NCBI RefSeq assembly: GCF_006345805.1
Contig: NC_043023.1
Coordinates: forward strand, 4,960,001-5,024,000
DNA length: 64,000 bases
Direction of reading: 5' to 3'
Source of the DNA: Octopus sinensis
Taxonomy: Eukaryota
Each line of letters starts with the position of its first letter. The stretch's first letter is position 1. Shown in pieces: positions 15,792 through 64,000 of this stretch. Made by a program: the position numbers and the translations under genes. Below the pieces are notes generated by a model that had not been told where the DNA came from, made no database searches, and saw nothing but the letters and a program-made list of their open reading frames with translations.

Positions 15792-16037
15792 ATAAAATAT
15801 ATACATGGAAAACGGACGCTAAATGATGATGATAATGATGAATATTAGATATGTACGTATATACACAAGGGTACAACATGAGTACCTATATCACTAATTA
15901 TAGAAGTCAAGAAATACTTCTGTACCACCGCAAAGTTACAAATCTATTACAGACAAGATAGGAAAAAATATCAGTGAACAATAATAATGTCTTACTTCAA
16001 ATGGGTCAGAACAAGTAAATGCTGGTCAACTCGGTAC

Positions 16038-16710: not shown

Positions 16711-16974
16711 TACTGGTTTCGAAATTTAGCGCAACCTAGACACGTGATTTCTCATCAACCAAAGTCCGCCAGCTAAATAACTACAAACATTCTCCCCCAT
16801 CATGCCTGCGAAAGTTCGCTTGAAGTGACCAAGCACCGTACGAACAAATGAAATGCGTAAATTCATTTATTTATAAATATAGGGATGGTATTATTAAAAT
16901 ACCATCACTATAATTAGCGATATAGGTACTCATGTAGTACCCTTGCATATATATGTACATATCTAATATTGTAT

Positions 16975-34134: not shown

Positions 34135-34326
34135 GAAGATCAAGAATGAAATCAAAGCATTTATGGAGCTGAGTGTTGTGAATTCCATGAAGTTGAAGTC
34201 ATTCCAGTTAGAAGAGAGCGAATTGGTTGATGCCCAAGCCCTCATCCAGGAGCGATATGAAAATCTTCAGACTCAGAAGAGAGTTCGTTTGCGCGACCTT
34301 GACGCTCGTTCTTCGGCACAAGCTGA
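34135..34326 (+). CDS. NUF2: NUF2 coding exon 9 (KIKNEIKAFMELSVVNSMKLKSFQLEE...SSAQA)
   Basis: aacag| and |gtgagt, 192 nt, phase 2-2, open, coiled-coil composition. Confidence 0.85.
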
Positions 34327-34359
34327 GTGAGTATTTAATTTTATTCTTCCTTTTCTCTT

Positions 34360-35823
34360 TCTTTCTTTCTTTCTTTCTTTTTCTTCCAATTCTTCTCCTC
34401 CCCTCCTCCTCCTTCCAATTCTCATTCTTCTTCCAATTCTTCTTCTTCCAATTCTTATTTTTCTTTTCTTCTTCTTTTTCTCATTCTTCTTCTTCCTCTA
34501 CTTCTTCTTCTTCATCTCATTCTTCTTCTTCCAATTCTTCTTCTTCCTTCTTTCTTCTTCTTCTTCTTCTTCCTCTACTTCTTCATCTCATTCTTCTTCT
34601 TCCAATTCTTCTTCTTCCTTCTTTCTTCTTCTTCTTCTTCTTCTTCCAATTCTTCTTCTTCTTCTTCCAATTCTTCTTCTTCTTCTTCCAATTCTTCTTC
34701 TTCTCCTTCTTCTTCTTCTTCTTCCAATTCTTCTTCTTCTTCCATTCTTCTCCTTCTCCTTCTCCTTCTTCTTCTCCTTCTTCTTCTTCTTCTTCTCTTC
34801 TTCTTCTTCATTCTTCTCCTTCTTCTTCTTCTCCTTCTTTTTCCATTCTTCTTCTTCTTCCTTCTTCTCCTTCTTCTTCTTCCAATTCTTCTTCTTCTCC
34901 TTCTTCTTTCCATTCTTCCTTCTCTTCTCCTTCTTTTTTTCCATTCTTCTTCTTCTTCTTTTCTCTTCTTCTTCTTCTCCTTCTTCTTCTTCCAATTCTT
35001 CTTCTTCTTCTTCTTCTTCTTCTTCTTCTTCCATTCTCTTTTCTTCTTCCAATTCTTCTTCTCCTTCTTCTCTCCAATTCTTCTTCTTCTTCCATTCTTC
35101 TCCTTCTTCTTCTTCTTCTTCTTCTTCTTCCATTCTTCTTCTTCTTCCAATTCTTCTTTTCTTCCATTCTTCTCCTTCTTCTTCTTCTTCTTCTTCTTCT
35201 TCCAATTCTTCTTCTTCTTCAATCTTCTTCTTCTCCTCTTTCTTCCAATTCTTCTTCTTCTCCTTCTTCTTCTTCTTCCATTCTCTTCTTCTTCCATTCT
35301 CTCCTTCTCCTTCTTCTTCTCTTCTTCTTCTTCTTCTTCTTCTTCTTCTTCTTCTTCCATTCTTCTCCTTCTTCTTCTTCTCCTTCTTCTTCTTCCAATT
35401 CTTCTTCTTCTTCCATTCTTCTCCTTCTTCTTCTTCCAATTCTTCTTCTCCTTCTTCTTCTTCCATTCTTCTCCTTCTTCTTCTCCTTCTTCTTCTTCCA
35501 TTCTTCTTCTTCTTCTTCTTCTTCTTCTTCTTCTCCTTCTTCTTCTTCCAATTCTTCTTCTTCTTCTTCTTCTTCTTCTTCTTCTTCAATTCTTCTTCTT
35601 CTTCCAATTCTTCTTCTCCTTCTTCTTCTTCCAATTCTTCTTCTTCTTCCATTCTTCTCCTTCTTCTTCTTCTTCTTCTTCTTCTTCTTCCAATTCTTCT
35701 TCTTCTTCAATTCTTCTTCTTCTCCTTCTTCTTCTTCTTCCAATTCTTCTTCTTCTCCTTCTTCTTCTTCCAATTCTTCTTCTTCTTCCATTCTTCTCCT
35801 TCTTCTTCTTCTTCTTCTTCTTC
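34360..35823. repeat. Interrupted (CTT)n/(GAA)n tract of about 1.46 kb
   Basis: CTT units with recurring CCAATT/CCATT/CTC interruptions. Confidence 0.95.
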
Positions 35824-36699
35824 CACAACATAGTGCCATTCTTTGGATAGCATGCCACTATGTGCTTGTTGTGACTATCTGCACCAGAGTTCAAATCCTA
35901 TCGAAGTCAAAATTTCCTTTCATCTTTTTGGGAATCAATTAAAAAAGGGGGGGTGGGGGGGAGAAAAACCCCATAAGTCAAGACTGTGGTTAAGAAGCTT
36001 CCTTTGTAGCCATGTGATTTCAGGTTCAGTCCCACTCCACAGCACTTTGCACATATGTCTTCTACTTTAGCTCTAGGCCAACCAATGCCTGGTGAGTAAC
36101 TTCGGTGGATGGAAACTGTGTGGAAGCCCACCTTGTATATTTATGTATGTGCATGTGTATGTGTGTGTATATTATATATATATATATATATATATACATA
36201 CACACACACACACACACACACATAGGTGCCAGCATGACTGTGTGGTAAGAAGCTTGCTTCCCAACTACATGGTCCCAGGTTCAGTTCCACTTCATGGGAC
36301 ATTGGGCAAGTCCAAATTCTGCCAAGGTCAATTTTGTCTTTCATTCTTTCAGAATATATGTGTGTGTCTGTTTGTCCTTTTCATCACCAATTGACAACTG
36401 GTGTTGATGTGTTTACATCCCTGTAATCTAGCAGTTTGGCAAAAGAGACTGATACTGGGGTCAATTTATTCGGCTAAAACCCATCAAAGTGGTGCTGCAG
36501 TCAAATGACTGAAACAAGTAGAAAAGAATATATATATATATATATATACATATATATACATATATATACATATAGATGTAGGTACGTACATATATATGTA
36601 TGTATGCATATATTTTATTTATTAAATTATCATATGACTGAGCGCCCTCGCGTTGTTTCGTTTCTTTTCTCCAAGTAAGTTTATATATATATATATATA

Positions 36700-41131: not shown

Positions 41132-42929
41132 ATATATAAATAAAAGGAAATGAAGAAAATGCTGACAAAATAATTTAAGTAATTTAATTAGGTGAAAGTT
41201 CTTTTTACCGGTTGCGCATTTGTTATGCTTATCAAAAGTTTTTTTCTCTTATCTGACTTTATGTTGGGTTTCCTGTCTCTTATATGTGAAAAAAGAGGCT
41301 CCAGAGTTGTTTAAGATTTGCTTGGTTTCGCGCCTAAAATTTCTTGTGGACAATGGTCAATATAATTTTGATTGGTCATTATGAAGGGGTCATGTGAATG
41401 TTTGAATGGAAGTTGGTGTTGGGGTAAGAAAAAAGGCTCCAGAGAAGTTAAAATTTGGCTAGTGTCACGCCTAAAATTTCTTATTGGTCATAATAAAGAG
41501 GTCACATGGATGTGGTCATAATAGAGAGGTCACGTGAATGTTTAGAATTTTCGAAAATAGCTTTGTTGAGAATTCCTATTGTTCAGGCTGGTCAGTAGAT
41601 GTCATGTGGATATTTTAAATAGCTTTTTAATGTGTAGTTAGGGAGTGTATTTTCCGCTTGACTGAATTTGAGCTGGATAAGTAAGTTCATTTAGGACAGG
41701 AAGAGCTATATGTATGTATGTATGTGTGCGCGCGCGTGTGTGGTGTGTGTGTGTTTATATGTATGTTGGGGGGTGTATATATGTGTGCGTGTGTGGGTAC
41801 AATTTTCAATATTTATAGTTCTGCTGGCCTTGTGCCTGTATCGAGAAGCAACGTGTTTGTGTGAAGTCAATATTTACAGTCATTTCCAAAAAATAGTGTT
41901 GGATGTTTTGCACTCGTATCCAATTATGTGTATGTGTGGAACCATATATTTGCGTGTGTCATGGTGTTAATATCTGGGTAAAAGTGTGTGTAGGGTGTGT
42001 GCAGGTGTAAGTGTGTTTGTTGTGGGTTCGTGTTAGGGGGATGTGTTTAGAAGTGGTCTGTATTTATTAATAGGTGGGATTCCATGGTTATTCGCTGGGT
42101 ATGAGTGGCATTGTCTTTAAATTTGTAGAGGGGAAAGATTCTAAAATTGGGATGAAGTTGTGCGGCACAGGTATCAATATGTGCACTAAGTGCTATTTTT
42201 CTGTAAACCTGTATTTTTATTTACAGCAGAACTATAAATATTGAAAATTGTACCCACACACGCACACACATATATACACGCCCCAACATACAGCGCCCCA
42301 ACATACATATAAACACACACACACGCGCGCACACATACATACATATAGCTCTTCCTGTCCTAAATGAACTTACTTATCCAGCTCAAATTCAGTCAAGCGG
42401 AAAATACACTCCCTAACTACACACTAAAAAGCTATTTAAAATATCCACATGACATCTACTGACCAGCCTGAACAATAGGAATTCTCAACAAAGCTATTTT
42501 CGAAAATTCTAAACATTCACGTGACCTCTCTATTATGACCACATCCATGTGACCTCTTTATTATGACCAATAAGAAATTTTAGGCGTGACACTAGCCAAA
42601 TTTTAACTTCTCTGGAGCCTTTTTTCTTACCCCAACACCAACTTCCATTCAAACATTCACATGACCCCTTCATAATGACCAATCAAAATTATATTGACCA
42701 TTGTCCACAAGAAATTTTAGGCACGAAACCAAGCAAATCTTAAACAACTCTGGAGCCTCTTTTTTCACATATAAGAGACAGGAAACCCAACATAAAGTCA
42801 GATAAGAGAAAAAAACTTTTGATAAGCATAACAAATGCGCAACCGGTAAAAAGAACTTTCACCTAATTAAATTACTTAAATTACTTAAATTATTTTGTCA
42901 GCATTTTCTTCATTTCCTTTTTTATATAT
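41132..42929. repeat. Near-perfect inverted repeat of about 700 bp (41132-41826 / 42224-42929), probably inverted PLE pLTRs
   Basis: Direct reverse-complement match, (TA)n flanks, degenerate hammerhead in each arm. Confidence 0.9.
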
Positions 42930-56127: not shown

Positions 56128-56715
56128 CGGATCTTTTCCTTTTGAACGGCACTTTGTAACATAATTTCTAGGTAACTAAAAAGTTTTAAACTTCGTATAC
56201 TGGTAGAATGTGTTTATAAAACATCATTTTCTCTTGGTTTTATTGAGAAAATTCTATAGTTTGTAAGATATTTCGTCTGAAATTTCGAGCATTTCGGCAA
56301 TTTTAACCAATCGATTACCTCCATTGAGCTAAAATCATTTGCTGCGTCTAAAACTGAGACAACATCCTGTTACTAACCCTAAACCTCCCCCTACCTTAAC
56401 CCCCATCTTTTTTTCTTCATTGTTAAATTAATTTAATTGTTACGCGTATAAAAAAAAAACGAAAGCAATGGAAAATAATTTAAACAATTAACAAACAAAA
56501 TAATTCTATAATTTTATACACAGGCTTTCCGTACGTATAAAGACGATCTGGCAGAATTCTGGTTTTTACACCCCTTATAATCCCTCATAACTTTTTCTCT
56601 TTTTTTTTTTGAATTTTCAGAAAATTTTTGCGAATATATGTTCTACACACGAGAATTCATATGGTCATGAAGAAAAAGTAGAAAAAAAAATTTTAACCCC
56701 ATTCCTTTAGATCCC
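56128..56715 (+). mobile_element. Non-autonomous DNA element, GGATCT...AGATCC ends
   Basis: Shares about 80 bp with 2541-2625 and, in reverse, with 19530-19855. Confidence 0.62.
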
Positions 56716-57078
56716 TAAAAGTTCCACTCTTTTAAGAATTTTTTGTTTGTCACATCATAGTTTAAAACATGGACAATGCGATTATTTTGCTTGAATCCCA
56801 GCAATAGACTGCCCTTGGCTACATCAGCATTTCATGAGGAAAAAGTATCCGGTGGTCGTGAGATGTGCTAAAAATAACAGTTAAATCACCCTGAAATCAC
56901 TCTTTTTTATTGTATGAATTCCCGTATGTAGGACACAAATTAGGAAAATTTTCCTGGAAATTCCCCCAAATAATGCTATGAATAGACATATATGCGTGTG
57001 TGCATAATAAAATAATAATTAATCATCACTTTCATTATCGTTAATTTTGTACCACAATTCCATGGAATTTTGCTGTAA

Positions 57079-57200
57079 ACTTCCGCTTCCGGTACACCAT
57101 CCTCGTGCTTCTGTTTACAACTGTCGCAGTCACTTCCTTACCTTCGTTGTTCTGTCAGCCGTGGCTCGACGCTCCACACCTGGCCACCCCACTGAGAAAG
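57079..57200 (+). promoter_or_regulatory. Candidate promoter and non-coding first exon of the LRR gene
   Basis: Tandem ETS cores ACTTCCGCTTCCGG (57079-57092), CpG-enriched unique sequence, consensus donor GAAAG|gtatgt at 57200/57201. Confidence 0.6.
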
Positions 57201-57873
57201 GTATGTACGCCCTTGTTGGCCATGGATGAGCAAAGTCGCAGTTCCAATCCCATGTTTCTGTCTCTCTCTCTCTCTTACACCCACTTAACCGAACCATGTT
57301 AACAACGGCCAGCATGAAGGCCACAACCTCTCATTTCATAGCTTTCTGTCCTGTTAACATTTCGCAACTTTAAGGGACGAATTTTCATTTTGTTTTATTA
57401 TTTCTTTGCTTTGTCTCAACCCAGTTTTTATCGAAGGCGGTGAAACCACGAACCATCCTTTTACTGCATTTCCTTTTCGTATATTTCACATTTTAAGAGA
57501 CCAAAGTGTCATTTAGCTGCTATTTCCTGCATCTTGATCGACCACAGAACTTCCCATTCCCTCCTTGATACCAAACAAAGAAGCTTCCTTCCTTCATTTA
57601 CATTTCCGGCATCCTTCCAGGCTGTAATCACTAATTAAAAGTTAAAATATTGACGCTAATTTCGGCAATTCCTGAAAGATTCGTCGAAGCGGCCCTTCAT
57701 ACTTTGTCCCTTTTCCTCGCCTAAATTTCTTCAGAATCCAGTGTTCCAACAACTGAGATTACAATTTTACCCGGCTTTTCAAAATTTTAATCCTCGTCCC
57801 CTCCGGTTTTTGTTAAAACCTTTTTTTAAAATCTATTCATCTCTTTAAAAATCCGCAGATTACTAAATCATTC

Positions 57874-57948
<75 letters not shown>

Positions 57949-58760
57949 AGAATGTAAAAAGAGAGAGAATAGAAAGCTAACAATGCGGATAGTTTTATAA
58001 AACCTTTATGTTTCAGGCGCAAGAAGAAAAATAGTGTGGGAAATTCCTAGTCATAGGTTCTGTTAACTCATTCAAATCCCGTATATATATATGTAATAGC
58101 AAACCAAAAGAATATCCCTATTTCTACACACTACCCGCATACGTCTGTACTTGTGTATAATGGGTCTTATTGAGTACTGCATAAATGACACCACAACTCG
58201 TTGCTTTTTCTATTCTGACTGGCAGACAACCACTGTAGTTAGGAGTCGTTTAGTACTCGACTGCTTTCAATACTTCCCTTTGGTTTTATTTCCCATCTGA
58301 CGTTCATAAAATCAGTGATCCAAGAAGTTTATTTCAGCAAGACATTTCATAACTATAAGTGGTGCACAATGTGAACAACGGTTAAAAAGTGAGGGAAAAT
58401 GTGAGACTTAATTTGGCCACATGTGAGAATTCTTCAACAACCCACAACGGGGTACATTAAGCAATGCAAGTTGCTGAATCCGACAAGGATCGAACCACTG
58501 TCGTAATTGTAAGCCTTTCATTACTATCTGCTGATCTGTAAGTGTTTTGTTGGGATTCACAGTAAAACAAGGAGCAGCAGGGCGTCCGCGAGACATGTTA
58601 ATCGAATTGAAATGAAATTGAAACTAAAACAAATTCGATTTTAGGAACGTCAAATAGGATATTACCCCATCATCTGGTTGTAAACAGTTTTTTAAATACT
58701 GATATCCCTCGTTGAGAAATTCATAAATACCACATTTTACCTTAACTTCCGGAAGAGTTC

Positions 58761-59128
58761 TACTCTTTACTCTTTTACTTGTTTCAGTCATTTGACTGCG
58801 GCCATGCTGGAGCACCGTCTTTAGTCGAACAAATTGACTCCAGGACTTATTCTTTGTAAGCCCAGTACTTATTCTATCGGTTTCTTTTGCCGAACCGCTA
58901 AGTGTCAGGGACATAAACACACCAGCATCGGTTGTCAAGCAATGTTGGAGGGACAAACACAGACATACAAACATACACACACACATATATACGATGGGCT
59001 TCTTTCAGTTTCCGCCTACCAAATCCACGAGGCTATAGTAGAAGACACTTGCCCAAGGTGCCACGCAGTGGGACTGAACCCAGAACCATGTGGTTGGTAA
59101 ACAAGCTACTTACCACACAGCCACTCCT
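58761..59128 (-). mobile_element. SINE family A
   Basis: Reverse copy with a small internal deletion. Confidence 0.85.
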
Positions 59129-59725
59129 GTCCACATTTAACTGAGTGGAAATCTTTATACTTCTATTGGAAATCAATAATGTTGACAAGCGACCTCCAGA
59201 AAACACGGCCTGAAAAGAAGCAAAACTATAGTTAAGTTCAGCCCTCCTCGAATTTGTTTCCCCAGTAAATTTTTAGACAATGTGTTCTTAAATGACATTT
59301 TTCTGAATTACGTTTGCAAGAGTGTAGATCATAATTATGCTGATAAAATGTAGGAAAACAATTAAGGAAATGTTTCCGGTCGTTCTTCCTCCTTACAACC
59401 TTGACTTTGTAGCACACATCCTAATCCTAAATTCCTTCAATTCTTTCTTTTAATGTGTGATATATATATATATATATATAAAATATTATTGAGACACTAT
59501 TTTGCAAACAAACAAGGAAAGACTAATCAATACATAAAATTTAATAATATTAAATTTTATGTATTGATTAAGTCTTTCCTTGTTTGTTTTGCAAATAGTG
59601 GTTTTGTCTCAAATAATATTTTTAATATTTTACTATAAAATTGGATTTAATCCTAAATCTGATTTTTTTCCCTGTAAATTTGGATATATTCTAATATTTA
59701 TTATTTATTATATTATATATATATA

Positions 59726-60117
59726 GGCACAGGAGGGGCAGTGTGGTAGGTAGCTTGCTTACCAACCACATGGTTCCGGGTTCATTCCCACTGTAGGGCA
59801 CCTTGGGCAGTGTCTTCTACTATAGCCTCGGGCCGACCAAAGCCTTGTGAGTGGATTTGGTAGACGGAAACTGAAAGAAGCCTGTCGTGTATATGTATAT
59901 ATATATATGTGTGTGTTTGTGTTTGTCCCCCCAACATCACTTGACAACCGATGCTGGTATGTTTATGTCCCCGTAACTTAGCAGTTCGGCAAAAGAGACC
60001 GATAGAATAAGTACTAGGCTTATAAAGAAAAAGTCCTGGGGTCGATTTGCTCAACTAAAGGCGGTGCTCCAGCATGGCCACAGTTAAAATGACTGAAGCA
60101 AGTAAAAGAGTAAAAGA
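59726..60117 (+). mobile_element. SINE family A
   Basis: Full-length copy. Confidence 0.85.
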
Positions 60118-60141
60118 ATATATTATATATATATATATATA

Positions 60142-60400
60142 ATCATCATCATCATCATTTAGCGTCCGCTTTCCATGCTAGCATGGGTTGGACGGGTCAA
60201 CTGGGGTCCGTGAAGCTGGAAGGCTTCGTCAGGCCCAGTCAGATCTGGCAGTGCTTCTACGGCTGGATGCCCTTCCTAACGCCAACCACTCCGCGAGTGT
60301 AGTGGGTGCTTTTTACGTGCCACCTGCACAGGTGTCAGACAGAGCTGGCAAACGGCCACGAACGGATGGTGCTTTTACGTGTCACCGGCACGGGGCCAGG
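60142..60400 (-). mobile_element. RTE 3' UTR fragment
   Basis: Reverse copy. Confidence 0.85.
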
Positions 60401-60438
<38 letters not shown>

Positions 60439-60633
60439 CTGATGCCATGTAAAAAGCATCCAGTTTGCACTGTAAAGTGGTTGGCATGTGGAAGAGCAAG
60501 ACCATATCATAGTGGCAGGAACATTTTTACCTGATATGGATTACAATATTAAAAACCTTTATATCTTATTTGCCTGTTTCCTCCTTTGTAAGGTTCAGCA
60601 TTTTGAGATCGGCCATAAGCTGCTCCTTTTAAA

Positions 60634-60767
60634 CTTAGCAAGAGTTAAACCAGACTCTGAGACATTGATTCAAGTGTCAATATTGTTTAATGTGCTTATA
60701 GGGGCTGACCCCATCATCTTGTTCTTGGGATCAGTGGCACCAGCTATATCAGGATTAGGATCTAGAG
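60634..60767 (-). repeat. Inverted duplicate of LRR-gene coding sequence 61755-61888
   Basis: 134 bp, 4 mismatches, no gaps. Confidence 0.97.
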
Positions 60768-61081
60768 GCAGTGCTCCAGCATGGCTACAGTTTACTTGTT
60801 TCAGTCATTTTAACTGTAGCCATGCTGGAGCACCGCCTCTAGATCCTAATCCTATTTACCACTGTTTTTACCCCAAGCTCTCACCCAATACATAATGTAG
60901 ACAACTCACAGGCTCTGTCCATCTCAGGTTCCTTCATCCAGTCATTGCAGAAGAATACTTGAACAATTTTTCTACTCCTTCACAAACAAAATCCACTCTT
61001 TCGAAACAATGCATCTGAAGAATCAATGTGTTTTATGAAAGTAAATGATGTTAAAACCTTTTATGTATTTTGATCCATCAA

Positions 61082-61300
61082 CCCTTTAGCATTCAAAACG
61101 GCGATATTAGGCCCAAATATTCTACCTGTTTTATGTTAAAACCAGCCAGATCTGGTCTTTGCCATCTACCCTATAATGTCATTCTAAAAGTAAAAACAAT
61201 CACATCATAATCTTGAAGCTAAAAGATAATCCATGATTAATTCAAAACAATGTGAATAAATAAGCAGCACATTTGATGGAATAATTTGAATGCTGAAGGG
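61082..61300. mobile_element. MITE with CCCTTTAGCATTCAAA TIRs (piggyBac-like ends)
   Basis: Inverted termini. Partial relative at about 53360-53500. Confidence 0.65.
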
Positions 61301-61504
61301 TTTCTTTTATTTAATTATGTTTCTTGCATTTGTATCTTTATTTCCTTGAAGCAAAGTATTGTTTATTCTAGGCATAAAAGGACGAGTCATGCACTAGTTT
61401 TAATAATTAACTAATTAAGTCTGAGTTTCTCCATAATAATTATATTAATGAAGGTTTTTTTTCTTTTTTTCTCTTTCTTCCAAATCCATTTTAGTTGGAG
61501 GCAA

Positions 61505-64000
61505 ATGATGGACTCTGATTCATCCAGGGCTGGCATTGAGTCTGCATCTCGGAATCACAGAACAAAGAAGAAGAAGAAAAAAGGCTCAGCAGGTAAATCC
61601 CCTAGTACCAAGGGAAGTACCTTAAATGACTGTAGTCCCAAGGATGGGAACATTGACAACAAGACACCCTTGAATCCTCTCATGGATACCTCAAATAATG
61701 TTGAGTTAGGGACCAATTCATCAGACCCTAAAGACACCCTAAATAATATTGACACTCTAGATCCTAATCCGGATATAGCTGGTGCCACTGATCCTAAGAA
61801 CAAGATGATGGGGTCAGCCCCTATAAGCACATTAAACAATATTGACACTGGCATCAATGTCTCAGAGTCTGGTTTAACTCTTGCTAAGGATTCTTGGATA
61901 ACTAAAACTGATTCTACAATTGAGAAGAAGAAGAAAAATTTGAATTCTCCCCAGAATAATTTAGACAACGTTGAGATTGAGGTGAATAATTCAGATTCTT
62001 GTCCAACTTTTCATAGCAGTTCATTGATAGAAGAAGCTCATGGTAATGTTAATCTCAGAAATCTCAGAAGTACTGGCATTGAAAGTGATAACATGGGTCA
62101 TGCAGAATCAAGTGACCCCCATGAATCAGATGCACCTCACCCCTCTGTCAACAGCAACATTGGCTTGGAATTTCCATATACAGAAAGACTGGTAGAAAAC
62201 ATAGAGGGTGCACAGCAGTTCACTTTGTTCCGTCAGCTGACCTCTATGGGAAAACTTGAAGACATAATTCTAAGAAATAGCGTGAGGGTTTTGAAGCTGG
62301 TGGGTTGTCATTTGAGTTCACTGCCTGAAGACTTGGGTAACCTGTTATATCTGGAGGCCTTGGTATGCAGTGAAAACAAACTCACAGAGCTTCCACAGTC
62401 TGTTGGTTATCTTCAGCATTTGAAAGTGTTACAAGTTGATATGAATCGCTTAAAACAGCTTCCGGCAAACATCGGATCCTTGAAGTCTTTGAAGTTGCTT
62501 GCTGCCAATGACAACCAGTTGGAGTATCTGCCAGCAAGCATTTCGGTGCTAGAAAACCTCCAGACTCTCGACTTGTCGAACAATTGTTTGCGAAGCCTGC
62601 CATTACACTTTCAGTCATCTTCATGTCTCAACCAACTTTACATCCAGAAAAACTCTATTGAAAAGTTACCACCTTGGATAGCAAAATTGTCGAAAATTCA
62701 AGAATTCCAGGTTGGTGAGAACCAGTTGACCGAGTGGCCGGACTTTGAAGAGTTTGGTCGCACAGCCACAGAGCTCACGGTGTTAGATGTGTCAGAAAAC
62801 CGGCTGAGTGCTCTGTCCAGTGGCTTTGGAGGACTACAATCATTGAATTGTTTAAATTTGGGCCGAAACCCTTTTGTTGACAATCAGAATGCAGAATGTG
62901 TTGGCAATCTGTTGAAAGGGCTGCCAGACAGCTTCTGTCAGCTCCATGCTGTTACTTTGTTAAGCATTGATGGGAATTGCTTGCAGAACTTACCCGATAA
63001 TTTTGGTGATTTGCGGTCCCTGAAGATGCTGAACCTGTGCGACAACGAACTTGAAGCGTTACCAGATTCTTTCTCTTACCTGAACTCTTTACAACTATGT
63101 CTGCTTTCAAGGAACTCACTGAATTGCCTACCTGAGCAGTTTGGACACCTGCCTGCTCTCAAGCACCTGGAGGTGTCTCACAACAACCTGGTGGACTTGC
63201 CATCATCATTTGGTAAGTTGTCTACGCAATTAGTCTACCTAGACCTTTGCAATAATTGCATCCTGCATGAACTAAAGATCCTTGAGAAATTCGAAAGGCT
63301 CACCTTCCTGGACGTTGGTAGCAACCCATTTGTGCAGTGTGATTTGTCGTCCACCTCTCGTGCTGTGAATCCCCAACTCACCTCAGCCTGTAAGCACTAC
63401 TTCACTACATCACTTGCAGGACAGTTTGAAGATTTTGATAGTGACGAAGAAGGAAGGGATGAAGGTAAAAACTGTGATGATGATGATGAAGATGATGAAG
63501 ATAAAGATAAGAAAGGAAAGGTTGTATATAGTCAAATCACATATCAACAGGGAGATAAAGACACATTGCCATCAAGAAATAACCACCAATCTTCTCCTCA
63601 GAACTCTCCTTGTGGCATAGATAGCTCGTTTGTGGGTCCTACAGAGTCATGTAGTGACCCCTTGAAATCTTCAATGACCCTAACCCAGCAGCTCAAAGGC
63701 AACATCACGGACAGTGATGATGGCACGAAGCAGAATCATGTTGCAGCAGAAATCCACAGAATGTCTTGTCACCGTGACAACAGTGTCAATACAGATCATC
63801 ACCATAGTAACCACACCGACAAGAGAAACATGTCTGAGGTGAAACGAAAAGAGGAGGAAGACTGGGATGAAGAGGAATGGGCTGGAGACAGCAAAGTGGC
63901 CCCTGCTTGTCGTGACCACACCATGAACACTACCATGACAAACAACACTGTTAAGCACAATTCCAGCTGCAGACAACCCACCATGACCACCACAGGTGCT
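61505..64000 (+). CDS. Leucine-rich repeat protein (about 15 intracellular 23-aa LRRs) with disordered N- and C-terminal regions; 3'-incomplete
   Basis: Uninterrupted frame of 832 codons from ATG 61505 to the window end. Acceptor ttttag| at 61494. LxxLxLxxNxLxxLPxxxGxLxx repeats at about 62280-63330. KKKKKK and KKKK basic clusters, acidic D/E tract. Confidence 0.93.
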   Translation, partial: MMDSDSSRAGIESASRNHRTKKKKKKGSAGKSPSTKGSTLNDCSPKDGNIDNKTPLNPLMDTSNNVELGTNSSDPKDTLNNIDTLDPNPDIAGATDPKNKMMGSAPISTLNNIDTGINVSESGLTLAKDSWITKTDSTIEKKKKNLNSPQNNLDNVEIEVNNSDSCPTFHSSSLIEEAHGNVNLRNLRSTGIESDNMGHAESSDPHESDAPHPSVNSNIGLEFPYTERLVENIEGAQQFTLFRQLTSMGKLEDIILRNSVRVLKLVGCHLSSLPEDLGNLLYLEALVCSENKLTELPQSVGYLQHLKVLQVDMNRLKQLPANIGSLKSLKLLAANDNQLEYLPASISVLENLQTLDLSNNCLRSLPLHFQSSSCLNQLYIQKNSIEKLPPWIAKLSKIQEFQVGENQLTEWPDFEEFGRTATELTVLDVSENRLSALSSGFGGLQSLNCLNLGRNPFVDNQNAECVGNLLKGLPDSFCQLHAVTLLSIDGNCLQNLPDNFGDLRSLKMLNLCDNELEALPDSFSYLNSLQLCLLSRNSLNCLPEQFGHLPALKHLEVSHNNLVDLPSSFGKLSTQLVYLDLCNNCILHELKILEKFERLTFLDVGSNPFVQCDLSSTSRAVNPQLTSACKHYFTTSLAGQFEDFDSDEEGRDEGKNCDDDDEDDEDKDKKGKVVYSQITYQQGDKDTLPSRNNHQSSPQNSPCGIDSSFVGPTESCSDPLKSSMTLTQQLKGNITDSDDGTKQNHVAAEIHRMSCHRDNSVNTDHHHSNHTDKRNMSEVKRKEEEDWDEEEWAGDSKVAPACRDHTMNTTMTNNTVKHNSSCRQPTMTTTGA

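What the first reader, a model, noticed from the sequence alone, without database searches (positions are those of the whole stretch)
60634..61888. A gene carries an inverted copy of its own coding sequence in the upstream intron: candidate newborn editing-complementary sequence
Seen: 60634-60767 is the ungapped reverse complement of coding bases 61755-61888 (130/134 identical; one mismatch would be a G:U pair). It is unique gene sequence, not a transposon, and lies about 1 kb upstream, between the candidate donor at 57200 and the acceptor at 61494. Established: intronic complementary sequences pairing with exons direct ADAR A-to-I recoding, and coleoid cephalopods recode extensively. Inference: the pre-mRNA folds into a 134-bp duplex spanning the 3' splice site and start codon. 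This could cluster recoding edits in LDPNPDIAGATDPKNKMMGSAPISTLNNIDTGINVSESGLTLAK (K>R/E, N>S/D, I>V, M>V, T>A), modulate splicing, or yield endo-siRNAs. High identity means either a recent origin or selection to keep pairing.
Basis: partly seen in the sequence, partly recalled or inferred. Interest (0 to 1): 0.82.

Follow-up and report, generated by a model that had tools for sequence, protein, structure and literature searches.

The report
Repair-scar inverted exon copy in octopus
A 134-base piece of an octopus gene's coding sequence is copied backwards 1 kb upstream, inside a patchwork insertion that likely arose in one DNA-repair accident; the unspliced RNA is predicted to fold into a long duplex that editing enzymes could act on, but no strong editing showed in two probable RNA assemblies, so it is likely a young by-product and not an evolved editing guide.

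Summary
60634-60767 is the reverse complement of coding bases 61755-61888 (130/134), the only second match to that exon segment found in the genome. The gene encodes an 869-aa leucine-rich-repeat protein from an intronless ORF in an Octopus close to O. vulgaris. The insertion joins the exon copy, a 42-bp fold-back hairpin, the last ~50 bp of a SINE-like element and a second 16-bp exon match, meeting at microhomologies: the anatomy of a template-switch insertion. Contigs of a second coded organism hold the right junction and break exactly where the copy predicts, so an assembly artefact is unlikely. Divergence of about 2.5% fits recent origin. Two of the three later changes break pairing, none puts a C opposite an exonic A, and the paired codons lie in a poorly conserved, predicted-disordered N-terminus. 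A 117-bp duplex is predicted, but two probable-RNA contig sets show no majority A>G there (a weak test). Incidental editing stays plausible; a selected ECS is unsupported. The scan has found this kind before in other genomes.

The parts
57115..57200 (+). Candidate non-coding first exon (5' limit approximate), donor GT at 57201
   Evidence: Top donor-like score in 56900-61480 and exon ends in AG, as the RNA contig alignments require; 57030-57260 is single-copy. Inferred, joint not seen.
60615..60633 (+). Left half of the interrupted old host repeat (left flank of the insertion)
   Evidence: Matches at 15+/19 in 4 of 14 genomic copies of the right-flank family (14+/19 in 6 of 14), 21-83 nt upstream of the equivalent point; 0 of 3000 random stretches reach 15 and 12 reach 14.
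60634..60767 (-). Inverted copy of coding bases 61755-61888 (130/134)
60751..60853 (.). Fold-back hairpin: arms 60751-60792 and 60812-60853, 41 of 42 paired, -81 kcal/mol
60791..60842 (-). 3'-terminal ~50 bp of an abundant SINE-like repeat (family name not determined)
   Evidence: 94% to the copy at 60055-60106; 119 hits in 664 kb examined.
60837..60852 (+). 16-bp exact direct match to exon 61755-61770, the homology that bridges hairpin and exon
   Evidence: the base at 60839 occurs in 1 of 79 SINE copies but equals the exon; junction held unchanged by contigs of runs X1 and X3.
60841..61070 (+). Right half of the old host repeat (resumes between 60841 and 60853), 67-80% to genomic copies
61495..64000 (+). 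Single coding exon; ORF starts 61505 and runs past the window end (stop ends at window-equivalent 64114); 869-aa LRR protein
61755..61888 (+). Exonic arm, residues ~85-128, in the predicted-disordered N-terminus; 61772-61888 is the part predicted to pair

Best explanation
The inverted exon copy is part of a 207-220-bp insertion that likely arose as a young template-switch (repair-synthesis) accident and is likely unselected, giving at most an incidental ADAR substrate. Shown: the insertion splits an older repeat and contains, left to right, the exon copy, a fold-back hairpin, a SINE-like 3' end and a second 16-bp exon match. Inferred one-pass model, read on the bottom strand from the right: a broken end in the host repeat primed on the exon 0.9 kb away through about 4 nt of homology and copied about 12 nt. 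It switched to a SINE end (5 of 6 nt alike) and copied about 50 nt, then folded back on about 3 nt and re-copied 42 nt of its own strand. It then re-invaded the exon through the resulting 16-bp homology, copied 117 nt, and was joined to the left end without homology. The mismatch at 61771/60751 would be the scar of the last switch. Inferred consequence: if transcription starts near 57.1 kb, the unspliced RNA would form a 117-bp near-perfect duplex over 36 exonic adenosines until the intron is removed. ADAR would be expected to edit it promiscuously and at sub-majority levels, in codons of a disordered, weakly conserved region.
For: Both flanks belong to one older repeat family. Hairpin 41/42 and 16-bp bridge. 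The base at 60839 is exon-like, not SINE-like (1 of 79 copies). Similar divergence in both duplicated parts: 3/117 and 1/42. The differences at 61850/61852 arose in the copy, because outgroup proteins keep Gly there, and they break pairing. No exonic A faces a C. The paired residues are no better conserved than their flanks (33/44 vs 69/84 and 91/122 in P0003; LRR core 326/370), and O. bimaculoides lacks 11 of them. pLDDT is below 50 for residues 1-255 (5-sequence alignment). Fold-back synthesis at microhomology with end-joining of the other end, and complex templated insertions, are described in yeast (PMC11724301, abstract and Discussion read). Long-dsRNA hyper-editing gives most putative coding edits across animals (PMC9989829, passages).
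Against: Such copies are uncommon: 0 unique-sequence local inverted pairs of at least 80 bp and 93% among 16 pairs in 600 kb of blind samples (under about 5 per Mb, and 10-kb pieces undercount), so retention could reflect benefit. It appears to be shared by two coded organisms. Three changes give almost no power against selection. The editing test sees only majority alleles in tissues not on record.
Confidence: 0.75

Rival explanations
1. Functional newborn ECS: after arising by accident, the copy guides ADAR to recode residues ~90-128 in neural tissue and has been kept by selection (BLCAP-like).
For: Geometry fits: likely 5'UTR intron, intronless CDS, predicted 117-bp duplex of -216 kcal/mol. 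34 of 40 possible A>G changes in the 134-nt arm are nonsynonymous. Octopus recodes widely: 76,359 recoding sites in O. vulgaris (PMC8382921 Table ST3). One later change keeps pairing as U:G. Probably shared by two organisms.
Against: No A>G listed in the arm in 2 of 2 probable-RNA contig sets (weak). 2 of 3 later changes break pairs. No A-C mismatch at an exonic A. The target region is poorly conserved and predicted disordered. Known selective ECSs are imperfect and conserved (BLCAP, PMC2958456 passages).
Confidence: 0.06
2. Two-step origin (differs from the best model only in history): a 5'-truncated SINE first retrotransposed into the host repeat; a later break at its edge folded back and switched to the exon through a chance 16-bp match formed by SINE end plus host sequence.
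For: The SINE piece ends near the element's natural 3' tail. Several host-family copies continue after the left-flank match with bases resembling 60841-60845.
Against: It needs a SINE variant seen in 1 of 79 copies at 60839 plus a chance 12-bp host-exon match. No target-site duplication is visible.
Confidence: 0.3
3. Assembly artefact (long-read fold-back chimera).
For: Fold-back plus local duplication resembles read chimeras. No single contig spanning 60634-60790 was displayed (the table was cut).
Against: The four differences from the exon include a two-base cluster, and the hairpin has a CpG-type change. Contigs of X1 and X3 hold the 60824-60853 junction unchanged. The X3 exon contig ends at 61796, exactly where 31-mers shared with the copy begin (chance about 1 in 2,200 for a random end). 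Against that reading, the X1 contig runs through the arm unbroken, and the X3 contig passes the other predicted branch at 61888.
Confidence: 0.04
4. Splicing switch or endo-siRNA source: the duplex loops out the 3' splice site to slow splicing, or is diced to silence the gene.
For: The duplex would enclose the branch region, acceptor and start codon, and is long enough for Dicer.
Against: The acceptor is 260+ nt from the exonic arm and about 730 nt from the intronic arm. Both probable-RNA contigs are spliced there. The same intron already holds a stronger SINE-SINE inverted pair (238 nt, -365 kcal/mol). No small-RNA data were examined.
Confidence: 0.05

Closest known systems
Complex templated insertions / fold-back inversions at DNA breaks (MMBIR-like and Pol theta-type; Yu et al. 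2024, PMC11724301, abstract and Discussion read)
   Same: Local fold-back at short inverted microhomology, copying of nearby and repeat templates in mixed orientation, one junction without homology.
   Different: Here it is a germline insertion in an animal intron, 207-220 bp with about four inferred switches; the enzyme cannot be assigned (that paper gives about 30 nt as typical for POLQ alone).
Template-switch mutations that create RNA hairpins in one step (Monttinen and Loytynoja 2022, PMC8794818, abstract read)
   Same: A single replication or repair event yields a reverse-complement copy able to form a perfect stem.
   Different: Their cases are short stems in RNA genes; here the arms are about 1 kb apart, one is coding, and a SINE-like piece is captured.
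BLCAP: intronless CDS with an ECS in the single 5'UTR intron (PMC2958456, passages read)
   Same: Same inferred architecture: upstream intron pairs with the 5' part of the only coding exon.
   Different: The BLCAP duplex is imperfect, conserved across mammals, adjacent to the acceptor, demonstrably edited, and hits the most conserved residues. This one is near-perfect, young, shows no editing so far, and covers poorly conserved residues.
Human CDS editing clusters driven by inverted paralog sequence (CLDN9/CLDN6, TOR1B/TOR1A) and the exon-intron 50-bp duplex of ASNS (PMC8897444, passages read)
   Same: Duplicated coding sequence in reverse orientation on the same transcript can act as an ECS and give clusters of coding edits.
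   Different: There the partner is a downstream paralog or an older intronic stretch and editing is measured. ASNS also shows that a perfectly paired duplex can stay almost unedited until an A-C mismatch appears, and no such mismatch exists here.

Membership tests
Complex templated insertion (template switching) | Inserted DNA interrupts a pre-existing sequence | tested here: met
   Both flanks map in order to one old repeat family; empty allele itself not seen.
Complex templated insertion (template switching) | Inserted pieces are copies of nearby or repeat templates in mixed orientation | tested here: met
   Exon 1 kb away, SINE-like end, own-strand fold-back.
Complex templated insertion (template switching) | Microhomology at switch points | tested here: met
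   16-bp bridge, 5-of-6 exon/SINE overlap, short fold-back homology; none at the left junction.
Complex templated insertion (template switching) | All pieces arose in a single event | tested here: inconclusive
   Divergences agree (3/117, 1/42) but intervals are wide; no outgroup locus available (closed).
Editing-complementary sequence (ECS) | Lies on the same pre-mRNA as the exon | tested here: inconclusive
   Acceptor 61494 supported; donor 57201 inferred from score only; best AG-ending donor-like site downstream of the copy scores 2.1 vs 10.0.
Editing-complementary sequence (ECS) | Can base-pair with the exon | tested here: met
   Predicted 117-bp helix in both MFE and centroid folds of 60560-61960.
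Editing-complementary sequence (ECS) | A-to-I editing in the paired exon | tested here: inconclusive
   No A>G listed in 61755-61888 in X9 or X18 contigs; contigs drop minority variants; tissue and RNA status not on record.
Editing-complementary sequence (ECS) | Editing depends on the intronic element | not testable with these tools
   Needs a minigene deletion or a natural comparison with a species lacking the copy.
Editing-complementary sequence (ECS), selected type | Conservation or compensatory change; A-C mismatch at target adenosines | tested here: not met
   No exonic A faces C; 2 of 3 later changes break pairs; low power.
Transposon terminal inverted repeat / MITE | Dispersed multi-copy arms | tested here: not met
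   2 genomic matches only.
Known structured RNA family | Rfam match at gathering score | tested here: not met
   0 matches in 56500-64000.

The most novel reading that the evidence does not exclude
One repair accident a few million years ago created, in a single step, a long-range intronic editing guide that switched on a cluster of recoding edits in residues ~90-128 of this LRR protein in octopuses carrying the copy but not in those lacking it. That would be a dated natural experiment on how cephalopod recoding clusters are born, testable with existing neural RNA-seq.
Probability: 0.3. Interest if true: 0.6.

Novelty: new member of a known kind. Interest (0 to 1): 0.27.

Why it matters
As it stands, it is a well-preserved scar of a multi-switch templated insertion that happens to make a long exon-intron duplex; both ingredients are known. 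Its value is as a test case. Published cephalopod editing clusters are tied to context within about 100-200 nt of the site (bioRxiv 10.1101/2021.06.16.448723, passages read). A lineage-restricted guide 1 kb away in an intron would show whether one mutation can create a recoding cluster, with relatives lacking the copy as controls. A negative result would show that a near-perfect upstream duplex can escape ADAR even in a heavily editing animal.

Tried and rejected
2) Published editing tables: Liscovitch-Brauer 2017 was not held under the id tried. The Shoshan 2021 supplement listed summary tables only (file list and part 1 of 7 read). The Duan 2018 supplement was cut when stored and had no hit for the gene terms. 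Zhang 2023 supplements gave 0 hits for 6 name terms; the gene may be listed under ids I do not know, so this is no evidence. Site tables hosted elsewhere and bioRxiv supplements were not seen and could settle the editing question. 3) No run was on record as RNA; X9 and X18 are guessed RNA. I laid 4 of the 24 listed runs, and repeat matches crowded the joint, loose-end and piece tables, so the 5' exon letters and any contig over 60634-60790 were not displayed. RNA depth of zero in 60926-61044 proves nothing alone. 4) Base rate: 16 local inverted pairs in 60 blind 10-kb samples; 14 were repeat-derived and the 2 that looked unique proved to be dispersed families. A relaxed scan (50 bp, 88%) left three more palindromes (L064, L066, L084) unchecked against the genome. 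So my first expectation that such unique copies are common was not supported. 5) The nearest SINE (60055-60106, 94%) as template is not established: genome-wide copies reach 96-98%. 6) L018 was dropped from the host-family count as a duplicate of L004. 7) Literature searches listed no paper on an exon-derived intronic ECS in a cephalopod; the library lacks most subscription papers.
Full report
OBSERVATION. 60634-60767 is the ungapped reverse complement of 61755-61888 with 130 of 134 identical; the differences fall at exon positions 61771, 61795, 61850 and 61852. Searching the 2.72-Gb own genome with 61495-62100 gave two matches, the exon and this copy.

THE GENE. One ORF runs from 61505 to window-equivalent 64114 without an intron, 869 aa, with Pfam LRR families. 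Its cluster holds an O. vulgaris protein identical at 865 of 869 residues, and an O. bimaculoides ortholog matches at 773 of 869, so this is an Octopus near O. vulgaris. AlphaFold on a five-sequence alignment gives a confident LRR core (about 256-611) and pLDDT below 50 for 1-255; low alignment depth could contribute. The arm encodes residues ~85-128. There the outgroup P0003 matches 33 of 44 residues, against 69 of 84 and 91 of 122 in the flanks and 326 of 370 in the LRR core; O. bimaculoides lacks 11 of these residues.

The copy's right end runs into a hairpin, 60751-60792 with 60812-60853, 41 of 42 paired. 60791-60842 is the 3' end of an abundant SINE-like repeat (94% to the copy at 60055-60106; 119 hits in 664 kb; family name not determined). 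60837-60852 is a second, direct, exact 16-bp match to exon 61755-61770; its base at 60839 is found in 1 of 79 SINE copies but equals the exon. To the right lies an old repeat family at 67-80% identity. The 19 bases left of the copy match that family's upstream part at 15 or more of 19 in 4 of 14 copies (14 or more in 6 of 14), 21-83 nt upstream of the equivalent point; 0 of 3000 random stretches reach 15 and 12 reach 14. So a 207-220-bp patchwork was inserted into an older repeat.

ORIGIN (inferred). The simplest one-pass path on the bottom strand has four switches and a join. First, host end to exon through about 4 nt. Second, exon to SINE end through 5 of 6 nt. Third, a fold-back through about 3 nt that copies 42 nt of its own strand. 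Fourth, a return to the exon through the 16-bp homology so created, copying 117 nt. The product then joins the left flank bluntly. The 61771/60751 mismatch equals the hairpin partner base, so it reads as a switch scar and not a later mutation. Fold-back synthesis at microhomology with end-joining of the other end, and complex inverted insertions, are described in yeast (PMC11724301; abstract and Discussion). Template switching can create RNA stems in one step (PMC8794818; abstract). A two-step history with an earlier SINE insertion remains possible, because no outgroup locus could be read.

IS IT REAL? Four of 24 listed runs were laid. Contigs of X1 (organism A; possibly the source sample, so not independent) and X3 (organism B, another study) carry the 60824-60853 junction unchanged. 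The 31-mers that the exon shares with the copy begin at 61796, and the X3 exon contig ends at exactly 61796, the break expected if organism B has the copy (chance about 1 in 2,200). Against this, the X1 contig crosses the arm unbroken, the X3 contig crosses the second predicted branch at 61888, and no contig over 60634-60790 was displayed. Graph simplification could remove such branches (my knowledge, not tested). An artefact is unlikely but not formally excluded.

AGE AND SELECTION. Leaving out the scar, copy and exon differ at 3 of 117 sites (95% interval 0.5-7.5%), and the hairpin arms at 1 of 42. The window and organism B differ at 4 of 317 sites in the adjacent intron (Fisher p 0.45). For scale, O. 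vulgaris and O. sinensis split about 2.5 Mya and O. bimaculoides about 34 Mya (10.1101/2023.05.16.540928, passages). An age of a few million years is therefore a rough inference, and high identity needs no selection. The 61850/61852 changes arose in the copy (outgroups keep Gly) and break pairing; the third is a wobble. No exonic A faces a C. Three changes cannot exclude selection. Such copies are uncommon: of 16 local inverted pairs in 600 kb of blind samples, none was unique sequence once the two candidates were checked, which bounds the rate below about 5 per Mb. This is the main point against calling it trivial.

RNA LEVEL. Folding 60560-61960 predicts the local hairpin plus a 117-bp helix 60634-60750:61772-61888 in both MFE and centroid (-216 kcal/mol). 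The acceptor and ATG lie in the loop, 260 nt or more from the helix. In both probable-RNA runs the gene contig stops aligning at 61493 with 84 and 40 extra 5' letters, which supports splicing at 61494 to an exon ending in AG. The best donor-like site is 57201 (10.0 against 2.1 for the best AG-ending site downstream of the copy; rough matrix from memory), so the copy is probably intronic; the joint itself was not seen. No A>G is listed in the arm in X9 or X18; the one exonic A>G (63734) is also in X3 DNA and so is an allele. Contigs show majority letters only and tissues are not on record. In squid, robust recoding is 91% neural-type and most sites are edited at low level (PMC9068888, passages), so this negative is weak. 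The same intron holds a stronger SINE-SINE pair (238 nt, -365 kcal/mol), so long dsRNA is nothing unusual for this transcript; what is unusual is that one arm is coding. Published site tables could not be mapped to this gene.

COMPARISON. It would work like the BLCAP ECS (5'UTR intron pairing with an intronless CDS; PMC2958456, passages) or like the inverted-paralog clusters of human CLDN9 and TOR1B (PMC8897444, passages). It fails or leaves open the defining ECS tests. In the ASNS case of the latter paper, a perfect exon-intron duplex stays almost unedited until an A-C mismatch arises. Across animals, most putative coding edits in long duplexes are hyper-editing by-products (PMC9989829, passages). 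It meets the tests for a complex templated insertion. Earlier unchecked notes of this scan describe the same kind of copy in other genomes; they gave two literature leads and are not evidence.

VERDICT. A real, young, repair-born inverted exon copy; likely neutral (0.75). My estimate that it causes measurable editing is roughly 0.3-0.45, and that it is a selected ECS about 0.06. New member of a known kind; interest 0.27, rising to about 0.6 if neural RNA-seq shows a recoding cluster confined to species that carry the copy.

Noticed in passing
window 41132-42929: Element with ~700-bp inverted arms (95-98% complementary, ~400-bp spacer). It is a dispersed fold-back/MITE-like family with at least 40 genomic matches, several also paired.
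   Followed up: partly
window 61753-61789: An annotated 858-aa isoform from this same contig (P0122) and the O. bimaculoides protein both lack the same 11 residues. The 33-nt gap sits between 4-nt direct repeats, has no GT-AG ends, and its left edge coincides with the start of the copied arm (61755). It may be a deletion allele or a cross-species annotation artefact; the laid RNA contigs show no gap there.
   Followed up: partly
window 15841-15903 and 16908-16970: 63-bp inverted pair, 92%, about 1 kb apart, with no match in my ~0.8-Mb comparison set; not checked against the genome.
   Followed up: no
window 58791-59028 and 59851-60088: Oppositely oriented SINE-like copies in the same likely intron, 238 nt at 87%, predicted duplex -365 kcal/mol; could recruit ADAR independently of the exon copy.
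   Followed up: partly
window 61077-61302: Very high-copy short element with terminal inverted repeats nested in the old host repeat just upstream of the acceptor.
   Followed up: no
window 34200-35900: About 1.7 kb of pyrimidine-rich (TTC/CTT-type) simple repeat with extreme strand skew.
   Followed up: no
L044:1678-1898; L084:7923-8139; L064:8880-8937; L066:5196-5276: Near-perfect palindromes in blind samples; the L044 one belongs to a dispersed palindromic family, the others were not checked.
   Followed up: partly
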